A DNA stretch of 63,629 bases, counting the filler. It is 12 parts of 12 records of this genome, joined end to end, with 100 filler letters (N's around TTAATTAATTAA, not from the genome) between each part and the next. Parts side by side here need not be neighbours in the genome. Positions count along the whole stretch, not along the records: positions 1 to 3,360 come from SRR15195285_1471; 11 more parts are not named here. One strand, written 5' to 3'. Position numbers and translations under genes: made by a program. How positions within the stretch are numbered: the stretch's first letter is position 1; the number at the start of each line of letters is the position of its first letter. Positions 69 through 44,270 of this stretch are shown here, in pieces. The notes beneath the pieces were generated by a model. The model was not told the origin of the DNA and did no database searches. It worked only from the letters and a program-made list of their open reading frames with translations.

Positions 69-1418
69 ATGCCTGACGCCGACCCGCCAAAGACTGCGGT
101 CCCGGACCCAAAGGCAGCTGCAGCAACAACTCTGGCGGCGCCGGCGCCGGCGGCGACGGCGGCGAGCTCGACAAGTGCTCCGCCCAACCCTGCGGCTGCG
201 GCCGCCACCACTCTCGCGCCGGCCGCGCCGGCTGCCACGCTCCAGCCACAGGCATACGCTGGGTACCAGATGGCCGGCTACCAGATGAACCCGCAGATGA
301 TGGTCCCAATGCAGCACTTGCGGCCTGCAGTGCCCGCTGGGCCGGTGGTGATTCCGTTTGCAAACGCCGGCACGGTGAAGCTCAGCGGATTGGCGCGCGA
401 AGTGAACGAATACCTGCTGTGGATGCTGTGCCAAACTGCGGGTGAGGTCAAGAACTGCAAGGTCATATATGACGCCATGGGACAACCGACTGGCGAGGGC
501 ATGGTGGACATGGGCGACCGCGACCAGGGGCGCCGAGCGATCGACGCGCTGGAGGGGCGCGAAATTTACGGCTCGGTCATCTCTGCTGCGGCAGTGCCAG
601 TGAAGTACTCTACAAACGAAGACACAACGAATCACACGTGTTTGTTTGTTGGCAACATCGGCAACGAGATCGATGACCACTCGCTGCATGAGTTTTTCGT
701 GGGGCTCTACTCGTCGTGCTCTTCCGCACGCATCGCACGTGACAACAAAGGCGGAGGCGGCGAAGGCCGTCACGCCGGATACGGCTTCGTCACGTTCCGC
801 GACAAGGCGGATGCAGACAAGGCGGTAGATAACACCGGGGTGCAGCTTGGTTCGCGCTCTTTGCGTATCATGCACGCCAAGAGCCAGACAGTGAGCGCTG
901 GCCGTGCGTCATCGGGAGGTAGCTCTGCTGCTCCGCCAGCCGTAGACAGCACACTTACGGTCGAGCAAATAGCGGCGCAGACTGAGACTACGAACACGAC
1001 AATCTACGTTGCAGGAGCGCCCACAGGCTTGACGGAACCTGTTGTGCGAGCGCACTTCAAAAGTCTGCTGCCAGACCTCGAACCCACGGAGGTCCGTGTA
1101 TTTCCTGACAAGCAGTACTGCTTTGTGAACTATCCAGACCATCAGATGTGTGCCCGGGCGATTCACACCGCCAACAACACACAGCTGGACGGCCGGCCAA
1201 TCCGCTTGTCCTGGGGCAAGATGGACACACAGCGGCAGCGGGCACCGCCAGGCGTTGCGGGAGGAATGATGGGCGGAATGCAAATGATGGGCGGAATGCA
1301 AATGCCGATGGGTGGCGGAATGATGGGGGCGCCGCCTGGGATGATGGGAGGAGGCTATGCAGCACCAGCCGCTGGTTATGGTGCCAGTGTCGGCAACCAT
1401 CGGTATGCGCCGTATTGA
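69..1418 (+). CDS. Triple-RRM RNA-binding protein, TIA-1/Pub1/Nam8/UBP1-like
   Basis: Intronless 449-aa ORF with three RRMs (VKLSGL; LFVGNI...GYGFVTF; TIYVAG...YCFVNY...IRLSWGK), an Ala/Pro-rich N-terminus and a Gly/Met-rich tail ending HRYAPY. Confidence 0.85.
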   Translation: MPDADPPKTAVPDPKAAAATTLAAPAPAATAASSTSAPPNPAAAAATTLAPAAPAATLQPQAYAGYQMAGYQMNPQMMVPMQHLRPAVPAGPVVIPFANAGTVKLSGLAREVNEYLLWMLCQTAGEVKNCKVIYDAMGQPTGEGMVDMGDRDQGRRAIDALEGREIYGSVISAAAVPVKYSTNEDTTNHTCLFVGNIGNEIDDHSLHEFFVGLYSSCSSARIARDNKGGGGEGRHAGYGFVTFRDKADADKAVDNTGVQLGSRSLRIMHAKSQTVSAGRASSGGSSAAPPAVDSTLTVEQIAAQTETTNTTIYVAGAPTGLTEPVVRAHFKSLLPDLEPTEVRVFPDKQYCFVNYPDHQMCARAIHTANNTQLDGRPIRLSWGKMDTQRQRAPPGVAGGMMGGMQMMGGMQMPMGGGMMGAPPGMMGGGYAAPAAGYGASVGNHRYAPY

Positions 1419-1559
1419 TCGACAACTGACAATTGATGAGGTGTCTATGAAGGTCTCTAGCTCATCAAGCTCGTACCATTTGATTTTAGGAGTTGCGTTT
1501 GCATGTCTTGGCAGACTATACCCATCGCAACCGTTTCATATTGACAAAGTAGCGTTGCC

Positions 1560-3233
1560 TCACCACTGGTCGCCTGTCTTTGAAAACACTGCAAACATGT
1601 TGTCGTGCGCTGTTAATTCAAGCAAAATCTTCCCGCCTATAGCGATCGGCACATCCTTCTTGTTCCAAATATCACGAAATTGTTTTGCCGTCGGTCTTCC
1701 GGGGATATCTGTCTGCACCGACAGCTCAATTGTTGCGTTCTCTAGACCAGTGTTGAGCACAAGTACTGCGACTTCGTAATGCGGCAGTGGCTTTGCCCAT
1801 ACCTGTCAGGCACGGTCCAAAGAGACTTGGTGAGTCGTGCTTTCCTGTAGCCGGTCAAGATTTTGGACCATCAAGCAGCTGCTGATCCATTGGTTTTCTA
1901 ACGTGCAATACCTCGACAGTGTCGTTCTGCAGAGTCTTGTAAAGCATCCCTGGAGCTCCTGCCCACGCATGGTTGATAGCGATGGCCTCGGTATTCGTAA
2001 TTGTTTGCCAAACGCGGTCCATGTCGACGGAGTTGCTCATGTTAAATCCTAAGATCAGTGGGCTCGAAACCTGCCGGAGGATGAGACAGCCAGTTTCAAG
2101 TTGGGTTTGAGGTTAGACTCTACGGAAGAGAAAATATGCTGTTCGAGAAAAATGCAGAAATGTCCACCACGAAAGCTGCTCTATCACTTATCTGTGTGCA
2201 AAATGGATCTATCGTGATGAGTCTTACGATACACCACAGGCCCATGTGTGCTCGCTCTTCGTTTTCACACTGTAGGTTCCTCCCCGGCGCATCGCTGCAA
2301 AAGTTGCCAATTTCCATCACTGGACGCCCAAACGACAGTCTCATATTGTACAATCTGGGAAACACCAGTCTACCAAATGCACCAGCACTCAAGTACTTAC
2401 TGTCTGGGTAGCCCCAGCAGCCCGGCCTAGATATTGGAACCGCTCCCCATGGGTGTAGTGTCGACAGATTGTTTTTCGCAAACCACTGGTGTGCCTCTGA
2501 AAGTGCGCCACCGAAACCATTGCCGATGTCACCACCACTCCGCCACATATTTGAGTCGCAGACTGTCGCAGAATCTGGACCTGGGCTCCACCACGAGGGC
2601 AGGTTGTGACCTGTGTTCACCACGCAGGCAGCATCAGTAGATCACCTTCTGTCCCAACGGTTGACACGAAAATATCACAGGTCGAAAACTCTCGCACGCA
2701 CAATTTTCCATCATCATCGGCCGACCAGTTGCATTTATCAATGCAGCCCACAACGACATGTTCATTGCCGATCCACACTGATCAATCTTGACCTGTGCTC
2801 ACCACGCAGGCCGTGTCAGCAGGTCACCTTCTGCCTACAGCTGACTCAAAACATCACAGTTCGACAACTCTCGCACGCACTGCGTCAAACCCAATCTCGT
2901 GCATAAACGCAACGTCCTCCTCAAAATACGTGCGGCCCTTCTCCATGCAGATACATGTGTTCAAATAAAAACCTACTTGCAGGGATAAAGAGTGCCCGTA
3001 GTCTACCAGACCTTTGAGGTCTGGGAAACGGATAGTGTCAATCATCGGAGTACCATCACTTTGGTTGTGCCACGTGCATCTCCCAGCGCGGCAGTCATTG
3101 ACGGAGCAAGTTTCGTTCGTCAATGAGTGTGGGAACGGCCCTGTGGGATGCCACAACATCGCTCACTCCGTGCTTACAGATCTTGCAACGAACAGCCTAG
3201 CACATACCTTGTGGAGACGAGCAGTTGCACCTC
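1560..3233 (-). CDS. Glycoside hydrolase family 27 (alpha-galactosidase / alpha-N-acetylgalactosaminidase-like), multi-exon, 5' partial
   Basis: The spliced translation gives RFPDLKGLVDYGH, GFDA|VKIDQC, WRSGGDI, PGCWGYPD|MMEIGN, RAHMGLWCI|VSSPLILG and E|VWAKPL...RDIW. Inferred introns: 2793-2880, 2611-2701, 2320-2400, 2071-2227 and about 1803-1912. The 5' end runs into the contig end. Confidence 0.88.
2611..2880 (-). repeat. Pair of homologous spliceosomal introns (2611-2701 and 2793-2880) in the GH27 gene
   Basis: Both read GTGCGTGCGAGAGTT...CAGAAGGTGA...GCCTGCGTGGTGA(A/G)CACAG. They are about 82% identical by manual alignment and separated by a unique 91-nt exon. Confidence 0.9.
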
Positions 3234-3335
3234 TGCAAATCATATCGCCGAGATTAAGATGCACCACAGTTGGCACGGCAGAATGTAAGAGATCTACTCC
3301 TCCAATGACTGCGCACGCTGTGCGAACATGACAGT

Positions 3336-3360
3336 TGTGTGTGTGTGTGTGTGTGTGTGT
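3336..3360. repeat. (GT)n microsatellite at contig end
   Basis: Direct reading of the sequence; it abuts the spacer. Confidence 0.95.
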
Positions 3361-3460
3361 NNNNNNNNNNNNNNNNNNNNNNNNNNNNNNNNNNNNNNNN
3401 NNNNTTAATTAATTAANNNNNNNNNNNNNNNNNNNNNNNNNNNNNNNNNNNNNNNNNNNN
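3361..3460. other. Artificial contig-joining spacer (first of 11)
   Basis: Ns flanking TTAATTAATTAA, which puts stops in all six frames. The same spacer occurs at 14927-15026, 19802-19901, 26384-26483, 30593-30692, 34685-34784, 39593-39692, 44282-44381, 50529-50628, 54568-54667 and 59805-59904. Confidence 0.99.
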
Positions 3461-4099
3461 GATCCAGAACCACAGAAATGTAGGATCCTAAGGGCTGATC
3501 TTCGATAAAAATGCAGCGACTCGAGGTGGTCCACGGAGTGAACGGTATTGCTCAGTGAGTTCTCCGTATACCCAGCGAATCCAACCCAGTTCTGAGAATT
3601 GTTGGGCCCAATTGGGAATCAATCGTGAATAAACCACCGAGTTCGGCTCCAATCTCCGTTCTGCGGGAAGGAGACATTTGGAAAAATTTGCAATTTTGGT
3701 CATATTTACAGAATGCATTCTCATTCATGCAAATTCAAGCACCGAGGGACTCTGAATTCTCGGGGTCCTTATGTATACAGTCTGCACTACCCTTGAGATT
3801 CATCTTCAAATCTGTCCGCGATCAGCCGGTTCTCACACTCTAGGAATTCCTATGAAAAAATGCTGAGCGTACGTACTGTCTGTGAGTCAGCGTTTGTTTG
3901 GCATAACATGAGGATTATGGGCGTGGCTGCGACAGGAATTTCCCCTGGAAATCGCCACGTTTGAGCGCGCTACAATAGCCGAAATAGGGGAAACACACGG
4001 TGAGTAGCGCTGAGTGGCGCTGAGCCACCGTGTGCCGTGCCGAGGGGCTTGAAGCCGCAGAAGCTGAGGCACTGCAAGGCGGGGTGGGGTGGGGTGGGT

Positions 4100-7000
4100 A
4101 TGTCGGGTCCGGCCGTGCGTCGGAAGAAGGTGCCGAAGGGCTTCAAGCCGCAGAAGCAGGTGGAGGTCATCGACCATGACCAGGCCTGGCTGCAGCAGCA
4201 GGTGCGCGGATACGCAGCCTGCCCTGTCCTGTCCTGTACGGCGATACGGCGCGGCTGCTGCTGGGGGGAAACGCTGTCCTGGTCTGTCCTGTCCTGTCCT
4301 GTCCTGTAGGACACGTCCTGGCCTGTCTGTCTGTCTGTCCCATTACCATCACCTACACCGCGCCCGTCACCTGCCCAGCAAGGCGCGATGCCGCAGCGGC
4401 TGCAGGCAGAAGATGCCCAGTCTACGATAGGAGGAAGCTGATCGCCCGTGTGGTGTCTGGCGACGCAGGAGCAGCAGGAGCAGCAAGAAGGCGCTCTTGG
4501 GGACGGGACTGGGGCGCCGCCGCGGCAGCCGGGCTCCAAGCCGCGGGGCAAGAAGGCGCCGTCCATGTCCAAGCGCTCGCAGCAGCGCCAGGCGCTGCGC
4601 GAGGAGAACGGGAATACCGCCGAGGCCGAGGCCGCCGCAAGGGCAGCGCAGGCGGCGGAGGAGGCGGCGGCGGAGGAAGCCCGCGCGCGCGCCGCTGCGA
4701 TCGCGCGGCAGGAGGCACTCCGCCAGGCCGCTGCGAAGGACGAGGCGGAGGACGACGAGGACGATGGCTACGGCGAAGACGACTTTGATGACTACGACGA
4801 CGACGACGACTTCGAGGACGGCTCGGACGACGATGGCACCGGCGACAGCCCCGGCGGCGCCCGCGCGCTGCAGCGTGCCATGCGCGCAGAGAACGCCAGC
4901 GCTGCGCGCAGCCGCAGCCTGGCCGCGCCCGCGCCGGCGGCACCGCCCAAGATCACAATGCTGCCGACGCGCGAAGTCGTCACGATCGAGACCAAGGAGG
5001 CCACTCGCACCAAGGCGGACAGGAAAGCGCTCTCTCGCTCTCGAACGCGCTGGCGGGACCTGGTCACCGAGGGTAGAGTGACGCTGACGGAGAGCGACAC
5101 TGCCAGCCTGTTCGACCGGCCGCCGTGCACCCTGTACCAGGTGGAGTGTGCCCTGGGCACGACAGGACGCGCCAGGCGGTCCGTACAGACAGGCGAGGAC
5201 AACATCACGATGGAAACCCAGACTGAGCGGCCGCCGATGCGATCACACGGCATGCACGCACCCGACGACCTGGGCCTCGCACCTGGCCAGTCTCAGCCCC
5301 ACGGATCTGGGCTTGTGTCGCAGGGAACCGACGCGCAGCCAGCTAAGGGCCCGGCACGATTGCTGGTCAACCACGACAGGACTTCGCTCGACGCATTCCT
5401 CCAACGCGCCTTGCCAGTGGTGGAGTCGATGCTGCCGAACGCGTTGAGGATCGCAGCGCCGCCCGCGAGCACTGGGTCAGACGGCAATCTCAGTACCTGC
5501 TACGCGACGCTGCCGGCTCCACGACAAGACCTAGCAGTGCGCGATGTGCATTACTGGCGACGGACCAACGCTGGCGGCGAGGATCGCAGCACCCTTGCAG
5601 TCGCTTACGGTACATCGCAAACGCTTGATGGTCTGGACGGGTCTGGACTGGTGTGCGTCTGGAACGCACACGATTCTCGTGACCCACTGGAGGTCTTGTG
5701 CTGCGCCGGTGCTGCCACGTGTTGTTGGATGGGCCAGTTGAGCGAGAATAGAGCGGCCGGCATTGTGGTCGCTGGCACTGAAGAGGGCACCCTCGCCGTG
5801 TGGGATTTAGCGCAGCCCAGATTTGCGCACGGCAAGACCAGCATAGAGCGCTGGCCATCGTACAGCACTGATAGCTTGGTCTCAGGGAACCACACTGCAC
5901 CGATTGTCTGTGTGCGCGGAGTACCGGACGCAGACGACTCGGAGCTCGCCCAGGCACTAGCGATGTCGCTGATGGGTAGCGGCAACAGTCACCTGCAAGA
6001 ACAGGACAACGCGGACAAGGGCGAGAAGAGCGTACAGGTCGCCACGATGGATGCTCTAGGAACTGTCGTGATCTGGTCGCTCATACAGCTCGCCCCAGGT
6101 GACCCCGGGGCCGACCCGGGGCTCGGCATCGGGGGGCGCGTGAAAGCCTTGCGCATGACAGCTGTCGACTCACCTGCGCATCCTGATGCACTGTCAGCTG
6201 TATCCACTGCCGTCTCTGGTGGCCTGTTCGCTGGTTCCCTGCCGTGTTTCGACATGGCCATGTGCCCAACAGACTCCAACATGCTGCTTGTGGGCTCGAT
6301 CAACGGAAAGGTGCACCGCGCCGCACGCTACGGGTACGCCATTATGCTTTGTAGTTTGACACAACGATGCACGTCTCTTCGGCTCCATTCAGCGTCTTCT
6401 GCAACTGATGCGAGTGGAACGTCTGACTGTGCAGGGATCCGCCAGCTCCGCGGCAATACCACTCTCCGAATGCGATTGAAGGGGGCCATTTTCCGTCCGC
6501 AGAGGGCCCTGAGTTTGATGCCAGGGCAGCCTCACGGTATCGGGAGCGCGGAGTCGGAGCCTCGGAGGACGTGTTGTGCATCGACTGGTCACCCTTTTGC
6601 ACCGACTTCTTTGCTGTGGCAGTGGCAGACGGGACCGTTGCTGTGTACGGCATTGGCGCCTCCCGTCCACGATTGGTCCTCGCGGCGCCTTCAAACCTGC
6701 CCCTCCTGTCGGTGCGGTGGTCATGCGATCGTCCATCGATCCTGTTCGCGCTGGATGCCGGGTCCACAGTTTTTGCATGGGACCTCACCCAAGCGGCATC
6801 TGATGCAACGTACGAACTGAATGTTGTCGGCCGCTCACACCTGTTTTGCATTCACTTGCACCTGATGCGTCTTTGGTGCCAGTCTTTCCACCTTGCAAAC
6901 GACGCTGAGCGTGCACTCATTATCGCTGTGTCGCCGCTTGCAGTTCATCCACACTGGTCGGTGTCGAACCATTGCTCTCTAAGCGGCTAGTTGAGCCGCA

Positions 7001-7229
7001 GGAGCCGCAGGCTACCAAAATCGTTGTGCCATCAGGCCCGGCAGCAGGTATCGCTGGGGCGCCAGGTAACGTTTCGACCGCCGACCCACATAGAGGGTCA
7101 GTGCTCGCGGTCGCTTTTGCGAACGGGTCTGTGGACCTGCATTTCCTGGAAGGCCCACTCGCAGCAATGGGTGACGGCGACACAACGATCGAGCAAGCCG
7201 TGCTGGAGGAGAAGCTTTGCAGATCTTGA
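4100..7229 (+). CDS. WD40 dynein intermediate chain, most like cytoplasmic dynein-2 WDR60/DYNC2I1 (FAP163), multi-exon
   Basis: Charged/acidic N-terminus (YGEDDFDDY), QT light-chain-binding motifs (SVQTGEDNITMETQTE), then WD40 blades (VCVWN, GTEEGTLAVWDL, MDALGTVVIW, IDWSPFCTDFF, VRWSCDRPS, VFAWDL). Introns at 4202-4468 and about 6334-6434, plus one near 6820-6950 with uncertain boundaries. Confidence 0.75.
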
Positions 7230-7389
7230 ACGACAACACAGTTCCTTCAATACATTCTTTTTGGCTTAAAAGCTATACAGTGGTATTGGCCAGCCATGTG
7301 TTGAACTTTTGAATGGACGGGTCAATCCATCAAACATCATTGATTGCACCAAAACCTCTAACTGCGCTGTGCCTCACTCAGTGAAGAAC

Positions 7390-10300
7390 TCAGTAGTCGT
7401 CGACCTCTCCAGTATCCTCTCCAGTGTTGAGGCGAAGCAGGTACCTGATGTTGCACTGGTTGACATTGTACACGATAAACTCCTGACAACGGTCAATGAA
7501 AGTGTGGTACAGCGTCACTCGTTAGTGAACAGCGCAGAGTCTATTGCAAGGTTCGATCTGGCAGCACGAACAGACGTACATTCACATTCACGGACGACTT
7601 CTTGATTTCGGTTTTGGCGACTTTGCCTGTTCCGTCACAAAACAACCGCTTACGAACAACAACTCCCGATAAACTCCCGAGCAGAACCAACACTGAAATG
7701 GAAAAAGTCACTCGGATCACATACCAAGCGGCATCATGCAGTCGGTACCATCATCAACCATGCCTGACTCGAGCGGAGCAAACTTCCCCAGCGCGTGTGT
7801 GCACTGTGTTCCCGGCTGTGCACACACGATCGAGGTTATACAAGGTTGCGACTGTAACATAAGTGAAAAACACACCTGTGCTTTGTCCATGTATTTGTCG
7901 CGCTTAGTTTCAAACTCTTGTCCCAACGCGACATCACAAGCCATGATCAATATCTCCTCGGACCCTGATGTTCTGCAGTAACTCGCCGACTTGCCCTACA
8001 TGCAAAAGTGCATACACGACCGAGGTTATACAAGGCTGCTACTGCAACGAAAGCACATATTCGAATGCTAGTGGACGACAGCAACTGTAGGAACAACGGC
8101 AAGTAAGGCTGTACTTACAATAACGTCAGCAAAGTAGGCTCCTTTTCCCTACACGCACAATGAGTGCACTGTCGAGGTGACACAAGGTTGCGACTGCAGC
8201 GGAAGCACAGAGGTCGACAGCAACTGTACGAACGGCAGTAAGTAAGGCTGGACTCACGAAACGATAGCCAGTTTTCGGTGCCTCAGGCGGCGCAATCCGC
8301 ATACCCTGGGAGAGGATGCCCCCGAAATTTGATGTTCGTGAGCCATGCCACAACATCCGACGATTTCCGAGACTTTTCTGCGGCTCGAAGCGATCGCTTT
8401 CGCCTTCACGTGCGACCTCAAACACCTGAGCAGCAGCAATAGCGTACCATGAGTCTCCAAACCGTATTGTCGTGTAAAGATAGACTAGATAGACTAGTAT
8501 AGAAGATTGATAGTCTAGACTCACCGCTGTCAGCTTCATCTTAGGGAACTTCTCGTAGCTTGCGAGGCCCGTCGGCGCCTTACCTTCTTTTACGTACTTT
8601 TCCATATGCTTGTACGCCTCCGTTCCTGGTTCCACTGGCTTCAGTTTGCAGTGCAGTTTTTCGTAGTGCTGATCAACCTCTGCTTTTGGTCCGTCACTGT
8701 CACTTCCATTCCCACCGCTAGTATTTGAAAGCATCGTCACAGCAGCTTCGATATCCAGTAGCGCTTCAATCATCTTGACTTTCGCACGGAGATCGTCCAA
8801 CGAGTTGATGAGCTTCATGCGGCCCAGACCGAAGTCATGAGGGATTACAGTGTAGAAGTGGTTGGAAAGATCAGTCAACTGTTGCTCTCTGCGCAAATCT
8901 GCATCGTCACCTTCAGCTTCCAGAACAGCCTGAATCGACGTCAGGACCTCGTATCCACTCTGAATCTGGCTTTTTTTCAAGTTCCCGAGTGGCATCTTCT
9001 TCAGATCGATCTCTGTACCGTGGCGTGCGCACAGAGACAGGCACATTCAGAGTCAGTTCGCGCGATAGATCACTGCGAGGCGGGGCAGCGGTAGCACGCA
9101 CCCATCTCTCGGAGGCTGTCTTCCATCAACTTGACATCGAAGATCAGGCACATTAGGTCTTGGACTCGCGGATCCAGCTTTGAACGTGCGTCCGCGGTCA
9201 CCGTCGCCAGTTTGCTCGCATCCCCGCTATCCTCGTTCTCCAAGGCGCGCGCCACTGGGAAGAACTTGCCTGGGCGTTTCGCAAACGGCACTCCACCCAT
9301 TACGAACGACCAGTCGTTCCCTGTCTTTTCCAAGTACAGCTTTTCAAAATCTGCCTTCGCCGCCCACACGCTGTCGAATTCCTGCAACTTTGTTCCGCCA
9401 ACATCAGTACCGACACGTCCCCATTTCCGGAACACCCACCAGCTCTTTTTGCTGTCTGCTTCAATCAGCTGGAGACCGTAGTAACTGTTAATGTTGCTTG
9501 CCAGATTAGTTACGTTGCCTACAAAGTCCCAGATGAGCGGGGGATCCTCGCCGCCTTCGTCGAGCACGTGACACAATCGCTGCTTATCTTCGCCTGCCAG
9601 CGGGTCTACAGCTGAGCGCCCCTTGATGATTAGCTTCTGTTTGTCCTGCTTTCCGACCCTCGGTCTCTTGTTCGACGCAGCAGCACCCTCGGCTCTCTCG
9701 CTGGCCGAGAGGTCCAGCCGGTGAGCATACGAATCAACGCTCGTCTGCGCCTCGAAGGTTCTTTCGATCCAATCTGGCTCGACCACGATGCAGTCTGCGA
9801 GCGTCCCCGCCTTCTTCACCTTCGCGTTACCCTCGTTGAACTCTGCGAGGGTTGCGATCAGATGCGTGCAGTTTTTCGTGACGGACTTCTTGATAACACC
9901 ACCAAGCTTCTCGATCTTTTGCTCTAGGGCTTCGTTCGCCTTCCCAGCTAAGCAGAATACCATGTCAGCGAATGGCATAGCTGTACCTCCTGCGGCCTGC
10001 CGCGCTCGGCGCACGGCGTCCTTGCCGGCCTTGGAGCCGGCCTTATATTTTGCTGCCACTGCTTGCAGCTTCAACTGCTCGATGTTCTCGCTCGGATCAA
10101 CCGGCCGACGCACTCGCTTTCGACGTTTGAAAGAAAATTTGCTGAGGTACGAGTTGTTGGCGAGACTAGCGGGGATTTCGGGCGCATCAGTGGCGATCTG
10201 ATCCGCAGGACATTTGAACACGCACGAGCCCCACGCACCTTGTTGGCCGCACTTGTACTCGTGGGTGGAAGCGTCGTAGGAAAGCGTGCTGCCACGGTTG

Positions 10301-11004
10301 CAGCAACCGCCTTCCTCACCAGGCGACAGCGCGACGCCGTAGCACAATATGTCTTTTGCGCGCTGCTGAATATCCGTATCTCCGCCCATACTGTGAACGC
10401 CGTTGTGCTGCAACAGGTTTTTGAGGATCAATGTGTTGCACCGATTCGCAAGCGAGTCCTTGATCTGCCATGCATACTTGACTTCTTCGTCGTAAGCCGC
10501 TTTGTCCTTGGCGTACTGCACCTCCTCCGGAGACACCGCCGCCGCTGCTCCTGCCGCTACGCTCGCGCCGCCGCCCTTCTTCTGCTTCTTCTTCTGTTGC
10601 TTCGAGTCGTCTGCATTTTCGTCCTCGGCATCAGCGCTCGCTCGCTTGCCCTTTCGTTTCTTGCCCTTCTTCGCAGCGCCCTCGGCGTCGACGGCCGCGA
10701 CGACCTTCGCTGCGCTCGCGCCGCCCAGGCTTTTCTTTATCCACGCCTCGACCTTCTGCTGGTCGTCGGGCCGAATCTCGTCCCAATTATGCACCAGCGA
10801 TGAGGAGAGCAGCCCTTGGTTCCCGGACTTGAAGAACGCCGCGGCGCCGTGCCACTGCGGCATGCGCCCGTCAAAGTGGGGGCTCTGCACCATCTTACCG
10901 ATGCGGAGTGCGCCCTTCTCAATCTTCTGCTTCGTCGTGCGGCACATCGAGCGGTTCGACTTCGCGTACTCGATCGTGAAGCCGAACTCATCCGGCACCC
11001 CCAT
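7390..11004 (-). CDS. PARP1: Poly(ADP-ribose) polymerase, PARP1-like (zf-PARP, PADR1-like, BRCT, WGR, regulatory and catalytic domains)
   Basis: Motifs IEYAKSNRSMC, FRKWGRVG, M|EIDLKKMPLG, FYTVIPHDFG, WHGSR, GYRF|GKGAYFADVI|GKSASYC and N|EFIVYN; the H-Y-E catalytic triad is intact. Introns at 9013-9101, 8426-8524, 8149-8257, 7996-8118, 7816-7875, 7627-7724 and 7483-7579. Confidence 0.93.
7816..8257 (-). repeat. Three mutually homologous consecutive introns in PARP (7816-7875, 7996-8118, 8149-8257)
   Basis: All three share the plus-strand block CGAGGT(T/G)A(T/C)ACAAGG(T/C)TGC(G/T)ACTG. The two longer ones also share CGACAGCAACTGTA and AAGTAAGGCTG. Confidence 0.88.
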
Positions 11005-11734
11005 ATCCCCGTGCAGCGCCAGCCAGCGACGGACGGAGCTTCAGATGATCGTGTGGCGACGACCCCTCCAGTAGCCAATCCCGAGATCTCCCTCTCGTCA
11101 CGCCCTCCGTAGTACTGCAGATCCCCTCTCGCCAGGGGCAGGGCGAGGGAGGGGGCTCTCTCAGGGAGTATTTGCAGTATAGGAGGAAACAGGGTGACCA
11201 CTCCCTCGCAAACGGCCGATCGACGGAACAGCGCTCCGTCCCGCCTGCTGGAATTCTGAATCCAAATTTTCAATTGCATATGAATTATGGATCCCGTACC
11301 GCCGAGCAGGCCCCCGTGCAGTACGCATGTAGCAGCGCCACCGCCAGGATGCGCCAGCATTTTTGTTCCGAAAAGTGAGTCAAATCAGTCAATTCATTTT
11401 CAACCTGGGTACATGTACCGGCCGGTACATGCATTTCGAAGACCGGATCGTTGCTGCTGGCCACCTGGGGTGCCATCGTGCCAATGCATTGTTGGCGCGG
11501 CGGCGGGTCTATCTCATCGTATATCGCTATTAGTACGAAGTACGTGCGGGCGCGGCAGGCACGCGCGAGCTGTCGTGCCCGCCCCAGCCAGGAAGCCCCG
11601 CCCTATTTATCAATACACAATAGACGTGGAGCCGGGGGAGAACGCCGCGGTCGACGCGCTCTACAACTATTCGAATACATCATGTAGTTGTGGCATCATC
11701 GTATATATCACAAGCAGACTGAGGCTGAGACTGC

Positions 11735-14647
11735 ATGGCGCTCGCCAGGACTGCCAGTGGTGGCATCGCAGCGCCAAAGACCGCCAACGGCGTGAGCTTG
11801 GCTTTTCTTCACGCGTTCCGCGAGAGGGAGGCAGCGCAGGCCGTGGCGCGGCTGTCCGAGTGGAGCGCCGAGATGTGCTTCACGGATCCTGCGACTGGAG
11901 AGATATCTGCGACACCACGGCTGCTCCCAGGGTTTGGCTGGGCTGTGACGGCCTGGCTGCCCAAGGGCAGGTCCACATACATCACCCTCACTCTCGAGCG
12001 AACTGATCTCAACCACGCCCTCGCAGCACACCTGCCGGACTTCAACGGTGGCGACCTGAGCGCCTCTCAGCGCGAACAGGCTGTCGCCAGCTGGATGCCA
12101 TCGTACAAGGTCTCGACTCGCGCCGTGTGGGACGAGGCCGTCGATCCTCTCATGTTCACAGGGGCTGCGGGCTACGAACTCCGTGACTCATCTCTCCGAT
12201 GCTACGCGGACAAACTGCGCCGTGACGGCCACGTCGAAGCTGTTGGAGACGCGAGCATGTTCGTCAGTCATGCGCTGGACAACTCGTTCAGTAGCCTAGA
12301 TGATGCGTTGATGTCCTATGCCAAACGCGCAGGCCTCGATCCTGAGAGGACATTTGTGCTGCTCGATGGCTTCTGCGTGGCACAAGAAGATGAGGGGTCC
12401 AACCAGCACGAACACTTCGCCTCGACATTCATGCAGTCGATCGATGCGTGCGACAAGTTCGTGCTGGTGTCAGAGCCTTGGTCGAATCCGAAGCCGCTCA
12501 CAAGATGCTGGTGCGTGTGGGAAATGTGGTGCGCGGTGCGATGTGACGCAGCCTGGGAGATCATTATGGGACCCGACCACGAGGCTGAGTTCGGACGCAC
12601 ACTGCGCGAGGTTGGTGCCGAGGAGGTGCTCCAGGCGATACGTGATATGGACGTTACCAATGCGGTCGCATACCGGCAAGAAGATGAGAAACTAATCCAC
12701 GATGCGATTCGAAATGAGCCAGCGGTCATTGGTGACGACGACAACGGTTGGACAGGAACGGTGGAATCTGGTCACCAGCGCGTTAACTCAGCGATCAAGT
12801 TGATCTTGTAAGCAATCATCGCTGTTCATTTTGATCTGTTGGAATGGAGTGTACACAATGTTGTTTGGCTAGGAACACGCCCTGCTGTCCCACTAAGTTC
12901 CTGTCTCTGTGACGTCTGCAGGCGCAAAACACTAAGCGAGTGTGCGACGCGGCTAATGGCGGAGTTCGACGAAGAAGTCGGCAGATTGCCTGAGCCAACG
13001 ACTCTCGCGGAGAAGCTCAAACGCCAGCTGTTCTGTACCCGTGGCGAGGAGGTGACAGCCGACCTGTTTTATGAGCGCGGGGAGCAGATGCTGGACGAGG
13101 CTGAAATCCTATATCGTTCCATCCTGCAGAAGCGCAAAGAATTGGCGGCAGAAGTGCTTGCAGATCTAGGAGTGACGACGACGCAAGACGGTGATGGTTT
13201 GACAGAGGAGCAGGTTACGGCGTTGATATTCACGCAGCAAATGGTGGTCTCCGTGCATGGTAAGCTTGGGCGGCTTTGCTACGACAAAGGTGACTACGGT
13301 GGTGCAGAGGAGTGTTTCTGCAATGTGCTATCAGCACGCCCTCAGCTCCAGGCTTTCGAGAGTGCCCTCACAAACGCCAAGATGCCGGATGAGATCCGAA
13401 GCACGCTGCACCAAGACAGCGACGAAAACGAAGCTGTGTACACAAGACTGCTATTGGCCAGCGCGAAGGCTAGTATGCTCCGAGCAGAAAATGGTCTTGC
13501 ACTTATCGCCAGCGCAAAGGGTGATTTAAAAGAGGCCGAGCGCTTGCTCCGGTCAGTCATCACACAGCAAGAGGTGGCCTTGCGACAACATCATTCGGGC
13601 CAAGATGATGAAATGCACGAGGGCGATTCGACTGTAACCATGGACGAGGCTGCCGCGGGTGCTGCTGCAAGAGATGTGGTCGACTCGAAGTCGAATCTTG
13701 TAAGCCTCCTCCGCACGAGTTCTGCGCAACGCGGAGGTGTACCAGCGAGGACAGAAGATGGAGCAGTGCCGCCGGGGCTGGCAATGCTCGAAGAAGCGGA
13801 GGAGTTGCAGCTCTCCGTGATAAATTGGAGACTCCATAATCTCGGCCCAAGCCACCCTGCGAGCCTCGATGCGCAAGTGCAACTTGCAGTTTTGCAAGAG
13901 GAAAGCGGCAAGAAAGAAGCTGGCGAGGCACTGCTCAAAGAAGTCTTGAACAAGCAGACAGAGCTGCTGGGGGAATCACACATGGATACATTGGCGACAC
14001 ACAACAGTCTGGCGACGCTATACGCGAAGCGCAACGACTATACTAGTGCCAAGGCATCGTACGAGTCACTGTTGCCACGGCTGGAGCATGTCCTTGGCAA
14101 ACGGCACCCAAATACATTGAGCACCTGCCGTAGTCTTGGCACAGTGCTCGCCAGCATGGGGGAGCACGCCCGCGCAGTGGATCTGCTCTCAGGTAAATGG
14201 TTCGAAATCTGTGTACCAATTCTTCCATCCATGGTTTTTGTTACCTTTTCGTTATTGAATGCCTTCGATGCTGCTCACAAGGAAATTTCACATTTTCGTG
14301 GCGGAACAGGCGTTGTGGACGCACAGGCTACAGTGCTTGGGCCCACACATCCAGACTTAAAGCATTCCACAAAGTTGCTAGCGCAAGTGCAATCGATGCA
14401 AGCCTCGCACGTGGAGGCGACAGCAGTGTTTCGTGCAATCGACACTGACAACTCCGGATCGATCTCGATGAGTGAGCTGACGATTAGGCTCGGAGACTTT
14501 GGGCTCACCGATGAAAGTGTTGAGCTTGTTGCGACGCAACTGATGACAATGATGGATGAGGACGGTGATAACGAGATCAATGAGTCCGAATGGTTGCACG
14601 CGTATCCAGCTTGGCAGAAGCTAACGGCACAGATCGATGGCCTATGA
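11735..14647 (+). CDS. TIR/HET-like domain + TPR (kinesin-light-chain-type) repeats + two EF-hands
   Basis: Motifs FVSHA, LLDGFCVAQ and LTRCWCVWEM; TPR-like LGPSHPASL, LGESHMDTL, LGKRHPNTL and LGPTHPDL; EF loops DTDNSGSISMSE and DEDGDNEINESE. Introns at 12808-12921 and 14193-14309 join the ORF pieces in frame. Confidence 0.75.
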
Positions 14648-15026
14648 TTTTCATTCCAGGAGGTTGTCTAATGCCTGGATGCTGGCCCTTCACAATCACG
14701 ATGTTGCGAGCTTCCCAGCATAAAGCTACTTACTCATCCAGTTTCCACACCACTTGCCGTTCGGGCCTCCACCGCATAGACACTTCCGGTCGAAGGTCCC
14801 AGCAACTTTTTTGCTTGAGACGTAATTGGAACCGTAGTCGTCTGCCAGCCAATTACATGAACACGCACAAGTATTCGACCGCGCGCGCCCGCACACACAG
14901 CCGTCTTTCGCATCAGCTCAGCGCCANNNNNNNNNNNNNNNNNNNNNNNNNNNNNNNNNNNNNNNNNNNNTTAATTAATTAANNNNNNNNNNNNNNNNNN
15001 NNNNNNNNNNNNNNNNNNNNNNNNNN

Positions 15027-44186: not shown

Positions 44187-44270
44187 CAGCGTGAGACTCT
44201 TTTTAAAAAAAAGAGTCTCACAAAAAGAGACTCTTTTTAAAAAAGAGTCTCACAAAAGAGTCTCACGCTG
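44187..44270. repeat. 84-bp nested palindromic element with 17-bp perfect terminal inverted repeats
   Basis: CAGCGTGAGACTCTTTT ... AAAAGAGTCTCACGCTG, with internal GAGACTCTTTTT/AAAAAGAGTCTC hairpins. Confidence 0.85.

What the first reader, a model, noticed from the sequence alone, without database searches (positions are those of the whole stretch)
2611..2880. Twin introns: two adjacent GH27 introns are near-copies while the exons are unrelated
Introns 2793-2880 (88 nt, phase 0) and 2611-2701 (91 nt, phase 1) align end to end with 13 mismatches and 3 gap positions by hand count. Homology spans exactly from GT to AG, and both are followed by exonic GTCA. Removing both restores GFDAVKIDQC...MENCHN, and the exon between them is unique, so this is not an exon-intron tandem duplication. 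No terminal inverted repeats are evident. Inference: recent intron gain by copying a whole intron into a nearby site, either by an introner-like element or by reverse splicing into the same transcript.
Basis: partly seen in the sequence, partly recalled or inferred. Interest (0 to 1): 0.82.

Follow-up and report, generated by a model that had tools for sequence, protein, structure and literature searches.

The report
Copied intron pair in protist gene
Two neighbouring introns of a sugar-cleaving enzyme gene in an uncultured marine protist are copies of one another, a known but rarely caught trace of an intron being copied to a nearby site in its own gene.

Summary
On the minus strand of a 3.36-kb contig, introns 2880-2793 (88 nt, phase 0) and 2701-2611 (91 nt, phase 1) of a GH27 gene are 84% identical from GT to AG. 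The exons around them are unrelated. An independent metagenome assembly carries both introns.

No third copy was found in the 63.6-kb window, in 15 related loci, or in two metagenome assemblies that hold the locus. There is no target-site duplication, no terminal inverted repeat and no unusual fold.

Site B also holds an intron in several relatives, and one lineage has a twin-like intron start there. Site A is empty in 13 of 13 related loci and in the closest relative. Two other lineages have a different intron at site A.

Best reading: a non-segmental same-gene intron duplication, probably B copied into A, possibly by reverse splicing. Splicing itself was not seen in RNA.

The same pattern recurs. 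Three PARP-gene introns in this window share sequence, and five intron 3' modules in a relative's GH27 gene share sequence.

This kind of event is known from fungi, and this scan noted similar cases in Naegleria. It is a new member of a known kind, in a probable picozoan.

The parts
2793..2880 (-). Intron B, 88 nt, phase 0, GT-AG, between ...GFDA and VKIDQC...
   Evidence: P0028, the window's own open reading frame, runs into it.
2611..2701 (-). Intron A, 91 nt, phase 1, GT-AG, inside the Cys codon of ...MENC|HN...
2702..2792 (-). Exon b, 91 nt (VKIDQCGSAMNMSLWAALINATGRPMMMEN + 1 nt). It is unique and conserved in all relatives.
2881..3140 (-). Exon a, 260 nt
2401..2610 (-). Exon c, 210 nt
2789..2792 (-). 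GTCA, the first four exon bases after intron B. The same four bases stand at intron-free B sites of relatives.
2607..2610 (-). GTCA, the first four exon bases after intron A. The same four bases stand at 4 of 11 intron-free A sites of relatives.
2676..2683 (-). Internal 8-mer of intron A, perfectly complementary to its own 3' junction (last 5 intron bases plus first 3 exon bases)
Evidence: 36 of 20000 shuffles reach this.
2855..2862 (-). The same 8-mer in intron B; 7 of 8 bases are complementary to its 3' junction
2633..2637 (-). CTGAT in intron A, a branch-site-like motif with its A 23 nt before the 3' end. The motif consensus is recalled, not tested.
2815..2819 (-). CTGAC in intron B, at the same distance of 23 nt
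3141..3207 (-). Upstream intron, 67 nt, unrelated in sequence to the twins
3208..3232 (-). 25-nt mini-exon (RCNCSSPQ + 1 nt). The gene continues 5' into an intron that is cut by the contig end at 3360.
2320..2400 (-). Intron 3, 81 nt. Its position (GYPD|M) is shared with the close relatives P0001 and P0044.
2228..2319 (-). Exon d, 92 nt
2071..2227 (-). Intron 4, 157 nt
1912..2070 (-). Exon e, 159 nt
1803..1911 (-). Intron 5, 109 nt
1560..1802 (-). Last exon with stop codon TGA at 1562-1560; Melibiase_C domain
   Evidence: PF17801, E 2e-09

Best explanation
Introns A and B are paralogous U2-type spliceosomal introns made by a non-segmental same-gene intron duplication. The intron at the older, widely used site B was copied, without any exon sequence, into site A, which lies 91 nt downstream in the mature message.

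The route I think most likely is through RNA. The excised intron B was reverse-spliced into the same transcript in front of a GUCA identical to its own 3' flank. The product was then reverse-transcribed and recombined into the gene.

Shown: the two introns are copies. The copy ends exactly at the splice sites. There is no target-site duplication and no terminal inverted repeat. No third copy exists in the DNA to hand. Site A is empty in near relatives.

Inferred: the direction B to A, the RNA intermediate, and splicing itself.

My odds: local copying of some kind about 0.7; direction B to A about 0.6; RNA route about 0.45.
For: The copy relation is statistically clear.

The boundaries are exact. 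Upstream flanks share 4 of 20 bases. Downstream, only GTCA is shared. The exons on both sides are conserved, non-duplicated GH27 segments.

Intron-free sites in relatives already read ...ACG^GTCAAG at B (7 of 10 carry GTCA) and AACT^GTCAC at A (4 of 11). Nothing was duplicated or added on insertion, and both targets shared four bases.

No terminal inverted repeats were found. Fold z-scores are +1.62 and +0.64, so the introns are ordinary. Their lengths, 88 and 91 nt, lie within the gene's range of 67-157 nt.

No other copy was found. A profile search of 94,008 bases (the window plus 15 loci) finds only the two, and the next best hit has E 0.18. In runs X1 and X2, which were read whole, depth over the introns equals that of the single colinear contig.

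Site A is empty in 13 of 13 loci that cover it, in P0044 (95.6% identity), and in 24 further read-through open reading frames.

Site B is occupied in L001, L005 and the distant L014. In P0038/P0050 the intron at B begins with the same four codons as the twins.

Local copying recurs. Three PARP introns on another contig share sequence. Five intron 3' modules in the relative L008/L009 also share sequence.
Against: No whole genome was held, so a dispersed family cannot be excluded.

The pattern scans that found nothing did not even recover the source locus, so they have no power.

Site A is not unique. P0045 and P0046 lack an intron at B but have an intron at A with another 5' sequence. Site A may therefore be old or a hot spot, and the direction could be A to B.

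The state of site A in the P0038/P0050 lineage is unknown, and so is the state of site B in P0044.

The intron states of P-numbered proteins are read from where open reading frames leave the alignment, not from DNA. Some of those contigs may be RNA.

The 4-base identity of the 3' flanks fits microhomology-guided DNA copying as well as it fits reverse splicing.

The PARP intron P3 shares only the 3' 45 nt of P1 and P2. A whole-intron RNA copy does not predict that without later deletion.

No spliced RNA was seen. The RNA-run contigs that touch the gene are colinear with the genome across other introns, and none covers 2611-2880.
Confidence: 0.45

Rival explanations
1. Local copying at the DNA level. 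A break at site A was repaired by copying the nearby intron B as filler. The repair was primed through the GTCA microhomology at the 3' flank. Only a copy with exact splice-site ends survived selection.
For: The four identical bases at both 3' flanks existed at the sites before insertion. The copies lie only 182 nt apart. The PARP intron P3 is a partial, 3'-sided copy, and the L008 family shares mainly 3' modules, as expected if copying starts from the 3' side and stops early.
Against: The 5' end of the copy coincides exactly with the first intron base and shows no microhomology there. A DNA process has to get that by chance plus selection. Uneven decay, with splice signals conserved, can also explain the shared 3' modules.
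Confidence: 0.22
2. Introner-type mobile family. A and B are two independent insertions of a dispersed intron-generating element that has further copies elsewhere in the genome.
For: Intron positions differ strikingly among close relatives. At least 8 DNA-verified positions fall within about 190 codons, as in lineages with bursts of intron gain. A relative has five similar intron modules in one gene, with shared 5' and 3' ends. Introner families can lack target-site duplications and inverted repeats, according to passages of PMC9860276.
Against: There are 0 further copies in 60 kb of the same assembly and in 30 kb of related loci. No extra contig lies on the introns at 80% or more likeness in two whole metagenome assemblies that hold the locus. 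Two unrelated families in the window (GH27 and PARP) are each confined to one gene, which random dispersal does not predict. No target-site duplication or inverted repeat was found.
Confidence: 0.2
3. Gene conversion. Both introns are old and were made alike by conversion between them.
For: Both sites carry introns in some relatives. At window position 2686, the contigs of X1 and X2 carry the base that intron B has. This could be a small conversion or just a mutation.
Against: Conversion needs prior homology, and the flanking exons are unrelated. Tracts that end exactly at both splice sites of two unrelated introns are not expected. Conversion can only keep alike what a duplication first made alike. 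Differences are spread over the middle of the intron rather than forming a tract.
Confidence: 0.06
4. The likeness is kept by a function inside the introns (for example an intron-borne small RNA), or it is an assembly artefact.
For: There is a weak Rfam match to a C/D-box family at 2632-2721 (19.3 bits, E 0.0066 in 331 bases).
Against: That match is far below the gathering score of 45. It puts its C box in the exon's Met-Met-Met codons and exists for A only. Folds are no better than shuffles. An independent assembly from another study spans both introns.
Confidence: 0.04

Closest known systems
Same-gene duplications (SGD) of near-identical introns in fungi, non-segmental type (Collemare, van der Burgt & de Wit 2013, PMC3609843; passages read)
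   Same: The similar introns occur only within one gene. Their length and folding energy are like those of ordinary introns. The flanking exons are not duplicated. [quoted passage not shown]
   Different: In fungi SGDs are rare: 82 introns in 24 species, at most 16 per genome, and half are segmental. Here two such families (5 introns) lie in 63.6 kb, and a third lies in a relative's 1.9-kb contig. The organism is a probable picozoan, not a fungus. The copies are 84% alike, not near-identical.
Introners / introner-like elements (Micromonas, Aureococcus, fungi; Gozashti et al. 2022, PMC9860276, passages read; PMC3609843)
   Same: New introns arise as copies of existing intron sequence. Intron positions differ between close relatives.
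   Different: Introner families have 5 to more than 2000 copies in different genes, and many have 3-9 bp target-site duplications or inverted repeats. Fungal ILEs are longer and fold stably. None of this was found here.
Similar introns in Oikopleura dioica and gained introns in Caenorhabditis resembling others in the same gene
   Same: Near-identical introns are taken as traces of intron propagation, with reverse splicing proposed. This rests on a review passage in PMC4122922 and a mention in PMC3609843 that C. elegans has 'only three gained introns' that are SGDs.
   Different: These are animals. I did not read the primary papers, so details beyond those passages are recalled.
Duplicated short introns in Naegleria gruberi genes noted earlier by this scan (e1-672953, e1-671734, e1-673023, e1-645246; AI notes)
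   Same: Two look-alike introns lie 89-203 nt apart in one gene and are read as local copying.
   Different: Those are 43-47-nt introns in a heterolobosean. I did not check those claims.

Membership tests
Same-gene intron duplication (SGD), non-segmental | Two or more introns of one gene are alike in sequence | tested here: met
   84% identity end to end; score 57 against a shuffle maximum of 19
Same-gene intron duplication (SGD), non-segmental | No similar intron in other genes | tested here: inconclusive
   None in the window, 15 loci or 2 metagenome assemblies, but no whole genome was held
Same-gene intron duplication (SGD), non-segmental | Flanking exon sequence is not duplicated | tested here: met
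   Flanks share 4 of 20 and 6 of 16 bases beyond GTCA. The exons are distinct conserved GH27 segments.
Same-gene intron duplication (SGD), non-segmental | Length and folding energy like ordinary introns | tested here: met
   88 and 91 nt against 67-157 nt for the gene's other introns; z-scores +0.64 and +1.62
Introner (criteria as in PMC9860276) | Family of 5 or more copies in different genes | tested here: inconclusive
   Only 2 copies were seen in all DNA to hand. The complete genome was not available.
Introner (DNA-transposon type) | Target-site duplication of 3-9 bp | tested here: not met
   Intron-free sites of relatives show no duplicated bases. At most the GT is ambiguous.
Introner (DNA-transposon type) | Terminal inverted repeats | tested here: not met
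   only internal or junction complementarity, none between the two ends
Fungal introner-like elements (ILE) | Longer than regular introns and with a stable predicted structure | tested here: not met
U2-type GT-AG spliceosomal intron | GT...AG ends, and removal restores the conserved reading frame | tested here: met
U2-type GT-AG spliceosomal intron | A spliced transcript is observed | tested here: inconclusive
   RNA-run contigs are colinear with the genome, none covers 2611-2880, and no spliced joint was seen
Segmental (exon plus intron) tandem duplication | Neighbouring exon sequence is repeated with the intron | tested here: not met
Intron-borne C/D-box small RNA | Match to a curated model at its gathering score, lying inside the intron | tested here: not met
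   19.3 bits against a gathering score of 45; the match starts in the exon; intron A only
Glycoside hydrolase family 27 (host gene) | Melibiase domains | tested here: met
   PF17801 on the last exon, E 2e-09. Full-length homologues carry PF16499 and PF17801. The spliced product is 69-89% identical to them. The catalytic exons alone gave no Pfam hit.

The most novel reading that the evidence does not exclude
In this (probably picozoan) lineage, introns multiply mainly in cis. An excised intron is put back a few dozen to about 200 nt away in its own transcript. It is guided by an internal 8-mer that pairs with the intron's 3' end and the first bases of the target exon (GUC). This short-range copying, rather than dispersed introners, would then drive three things seen here: the clustering of introns in a few genes, the same-gene intron families, and the mosaic of intron positions among close relatives.
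Probability: 0.12. Interest if true: 0.85.

Novelty: new member of a known kind. Interest (0 to 1): 0.55.

Why it matters
How new spliceosomal introns arise is still debated. Clear source-and-copy pairs are rare outside the introner families.

This locus gives a clean pair with exact ends, no insertion scar, and a target that shares four bases with the source's flank.

The lineage looks unusually active. Two further same-gene intron families turned up in under 100 kb of DNA. Relatives at 80-95% protein identity carry introns at many different positions of the same gene.

The organism is common in marine metagenomes: 13 DNA runs hold at least half of the sampled words. The timing, direction and frequency of such copying could therefore be measured from existing environmental data. 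I found no paper that describes intron duplication in Picozoa (searches; passages of one preprint).

Tried and rejected
Whole-genome search: no genome is held for this window.

Exact-pattern scans for the conserved intron ends found 0 hits in metagenome, prokaryote-genome and viral contigs. The source locus itself was not recovered, so these scans say nothing about copy number.

A protein-guided scan of prokaryote genome contigs matched 46 patterns, and none encoded a relative.

RNA support for splicing: two metatranscriptome runs were laid. Their contigs are unspliced and colinear, and they miss the twin region. This gives no verdict either way.

Diplonemid lead: I took the tag 'Hpha' on one homologue, from memory, for a diplonemid and read diplonemid intron literature. 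I dropped the lead when the names of cluster mates pointed to Picozoa.

An Atlas look-up of the MCM gene for taxonomy was uninformative.

An intron-borne snoRNA: the weak Rfam hits are spurious.

A tandem repeat explanation for 7818-8257: TRF finds no array there.

The exact look-up of the window's 43-aa 'exon b plus intron A' open reading frame found it absent from the collection. Lineages with introns at both sites therefore cannot be seen through exon-b reading frames.

Earlier scan notes for this genome or sequence: none.

Supplements of the papers were not available. The intron tables of PMC9860276, which covers Tara Oceans genomes, might already list such families.

Full report
WHAT THE WINDOW IS

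The window is not one molecule. It is 12 short contigs (3.4-11.5 kb) joined by N44-TTAATTAATTAA-N44 linkers. The finding lies on the first contig (1-3360). No whole genome is held for it.

Homologues of the gene sit in 90% clusters with proteins that a public collection labels Picozoa single-cell genomes. The window's own open reading frame (P0028) is in one of these clusters. I therefore treat the organism as a probable picozoan. This is a lead from names, not a phylogeny.

The stretch 1560-3340 occurs in 13 marine or seawater DNA runs at half or more of its sampled words.

GENE MODEL

The gene is on the minus strand. I set the splice sites by hand and checked them against homologues. In order along the gene:
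- mini-exon 3232-3208
- intron 3207-3141
- exon a 3140-2881
- intron B 2880-2793
- exon b 2792-2702
- intron A 2701-2611
- exon c 2610-2401
- intron 2400-2320
- exon 2319-2228
- intron 2227-2071
- exon 2070-1912
- intron 1911-1803
- last exon 1802-1560

The 5' end is cut off by the contig end.

The last exon matches Melibiase_C (E 2e-09). Full-length homologues carry the GH27 domains. The spliced product (350 aa) is colinear with them at 69-89% identity.

THE OBSERVATION

- Introns A (91 nt, phase 1) and B (88 nt, phase 0) align end to end with 74 identical positions, 14 mismatches and 3 gap columns.
- They are the strongest local repeat in the window (83% over 95 nt, E 3.4e-19).
- Their alignment score is 57, against a maximum of 19 in 2000 shuffles. 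Of 55 pairs among 11 annotated introns, only this pair and two PARP pairs stand out.
- Similarity begins exactly at the GT (upstream flanks share 4 of 20 bases). It ends four bases after the AG, at GTCA in both copies, and then drops to 6 of 16.
- The first 15 and last 18 bases are nearly invariant, and the differences lie in the middle.
- Both copies have a CTGAY 23 nt from the 3' end.

REAL DNA, BUT SPLICING NOT SEEN

A 1034-nt contig from a different study (X2) is colinear over 2243-3276 with two differences and no gaps. A 2770-nt contig of X1 covers the whole stretch with four differences, although X1 may be the source sample.

The three listed differences for these contigs (positions 2344, 2686, 3184) all lie in introns. 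At 2686, X1 and X2 carry the base that intron B has.

The RNA-run contigs (X14, X16) that touch the gene are colinear with the genome across other introns. None covers 2611-2880, and no spliced joint was listed.

Splicing is therefore inferred from three things:
- the GT-AG ends;
- the in-frame stops if the introns are retained;
- the gap-free match of the spliced product to homologues.

OTHER COPIES

None was found.
- blastn-short and a profile search (nhmmer --max) over the window plus 15 related loci (94,008 bases) return only A and B. The next best hit has E 0.18.
- In X1 and X2, whose contigs were read whole at 80% likeness, depth over the intron interiors equals that of the one colinear contig. 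Pieces as short as 64-97 nt at about 81% identity were laid elsewhere on the gene, so the search was sensitive enough.
- Pattern scans of three public collections found nothing, but they did not recover the source locus either, so they carry no weight.

RELATIVES

Fifteen metagenome loci encode relatives.

Site A:
- It is intron-free in all 13 loci that cover it. Three of these (L002, L003, L006) have no introns at all and may be RNA.
- It is also intron-free in a contig at about 81% nucleotide identity that is present in both a DNA run and an RNA run.
- P0044, 95.6% identical to the window over 91 aa, reads through site A but runs into the next intron at the same place as the window.
- P0045 and P0046 lack an intron at B but leave the alignment exactly at site A, with other sequence.

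Site B:
- It carries an intron in L001 (about 194 nt), L005 (about 180 nt) and the distant L014 (75 nt), at exactly the same phase-0 position.
- A relative's contig in X2 has 178 letters in place of the 89 window bases skipped at that joint.
- Several groups of open reading frames run into an intron there.
- One of those groups, P0038/P0050 (89.5% identical, seen on 21 contigs), starts the intron with the same four codons as the twins and stays similar for about eight codons.
- Site B is empty in 11 loci.

Within about 190 codons, relatives show at least 8 intron positions verified in DNA: KGLV|, B, VKI|, SLWA|, A, SPGP|, GNGFG|, GYPD|. More are inferred from reading-frame tails.

One relative (P0043, 79% identity) has 366 uninterrupted residues on a 10.3-kb contig.

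INSERTION SIGNATURE

Intron-free sites in relatives already read ...ACG^GTCAAG at B (7 of 10 with GTCA) and AACT^GTCAC at A (4 of 11). The insertion therefore added nothing but the intron. There is no target-site duplication beyond an ambiguous GT. The shared GTCA is a property of the two target sites.

No terminal inverted repeats were found, and there is no stable fold (z +1.62 and +0.64).

An internal 8-mer of intron A is perfectly complementary to its own 3' junction, including the first three exon bases. In intron B, 7 of 8 bases are complementary. 36 of 20000 shuffles reach this. I noticed this after the fact, so I give it little weight.

THE SAME THING ELSEWHERE

On the second contig, a PARP gene (PF00644 E 2.4e-20, PF02877 E 3.3e-16) has three consecutive phase-0 introns that share sequence:
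- P1, 8257-8149;
- P2, 8118-7996;
- P3, 7875-7816, which shares only the 3' 45 nt.

P1 and P2 flank a 30-nt exon. Their scores are 48 and 26, against shuffle maxima of 19 and 16. A profile finds no fourth copy in 94 kb, and the family is unrelated to the GH27 twins.

In the relative's GH27 locus L008, five stretches share a 60-nt module that ends at a 3' splice site (E 9e-15 to 9.5e-10). Four of these sit directly in front of verified exons. Several of the introns also share a 5' start. L009, from another sample, repeats this.

Much of the window is intron-poor: 12 stop-free stretches of 500 or more codons. Introns therefore cluster in a few genes.

MECHANISM

That one intron was copied from the other is well supported.

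Conversion between two unrelated old introns cannot produce homology that ends exactly at both splice sites, with unrelated exons around. At most it keeps copies alike after a duplication.

A dispersed introner family is not excluded without the genome. But two unrelated families that are each confined to one gene, with no third copy in the same assembly or in two metagenome assemblies, argue for short-range copying.

Direction B to A is favoured for three reasons:
- site B is widely used;
- the twin-type sequence at B is shared with another lineage;
- site A is empty in the nearest relative.

It is not settled, because site A is occupied in two other lineages.

An RNA route (reverse splicing into the same transcript, reverse transcription, recombination) gives the exact intron ends for free. 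A DNA route (repair synthesis primed at the GTCA microhomology) explains the shared flank and the partial, 3'-sided copies, but it needs selection to explain the exact 5' end. I put these at about 0.45 and 0.22.

COMPARISON WITH WHAT IS KNOWN

The closest description is the 'same gene duplication' class of near-identical introns in fungi (passages of PMC3609843):
- 82 introns in 24 species;
- half of them segmental;
- the rest suggested to be intron transposition within the same transcript;
- length and folding energy like ordinary introns.

The present pair meets those features. It fails the tested features of introners and fungal ILEs: copy number, target-site duplication, inverted repeats, length and structure (passages of PMC9860276).

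Earlier notes of this scan describe similar pairs in Naegleria. I did not check them.

I found nothing on intron duplication in Picozoa (listings; passages of one 2026 preprint). Supplements could not be read.

VERDICT

It is an ordinary kind of event in the sense that it has been described before. Here it appears in a little-known lineage where it seems unusually frequent and where environmental data could date it.

Noticed in passing
window 7816-8257 (minus strand), contig 3461-14926: A PARP-like gene has three consecutive phase-0 introns that share sequence: 8257-8149, 8118-7996 and 7875-7816. The third shares only the 3' 45 nt. The first two flank a 30-nt exon (8148-8119). The family is unrelated to the GH27 twins, and no fourth copy exists in 94 kb.
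   Followed up: partly
L008 326-395, 498-562, 945-1008, 1425-1481, 1750-1814 (the same in L009): A relative's GH27 locus has five copies of a 60-nt module that ends at a 3' splice site. Four lie directly before verified exons. Several of the introns also start alike (GTACGG...). The module is not found in the window or in the other loci.
   Followed up: partly
GH27 relatives: L001-L015 and P0001-P0073, aligned to window residues 1-190: Intron positions form a mosaic among relatives of 80-95% protein identity. At least 8 positions are verified in DNA, and about as many again are inferred from reading-frame tails. One relative (P0043) has no intron in 366 residues.
   Followed up: partly
window 2686: The independent contigs of runs X1 and X2 carry C here (G on the gene strand), the base that intron B has at the matching position. 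In those samples the twins differ by one base less.
   Followed up: no
window 2676-2683 with 2608-2615; 2855-2862 with 2790-2797: An internal 8-mer of each twin is complementary to that intron's own 3' splice junction plus the first three exon bases: 8 of 8 in A and 7 of 8 in B. 36 of 20000 shuffles reach this.
   Followed up: partly
window 1400-3335, RNA runs X14 and X16: Metatranscriptome contigs that match the gene include intron sequence (1882-2160, 2240-2390, 2927-3237). They may be DNA carry-over or unspliced RNA. No spliced form was seen.
   Followed up: no
window 3361-3460 and ten further places: The window is a chain of 12 contigs joined by N44-TTAATTAATTAA-N44 linkers, so neighbouring 'genes' across a linker are not neighbours in the genome.
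   Followed up: yes
window 3208-3232: A 25-nt mini-exon of the GH27 gene lies between two introns. The upstream intron is cut by the contig end, which follows a (TG)n run.
   Followed up: partly
window 44191-44253: A 63-nt palindromic stretch, A/T-rich around AAAGAGTCTC, is repeated in tandem (32-nt units). It lies at the end of a contig.
   Followed up: no
whole window: There are 12 stop-free stretches of 500 or more codons (up to 1402), so most genes here have long exons. Introns cluster in the GH27 gene and at the 3' end of the PARP gene.
   Followed up: partly
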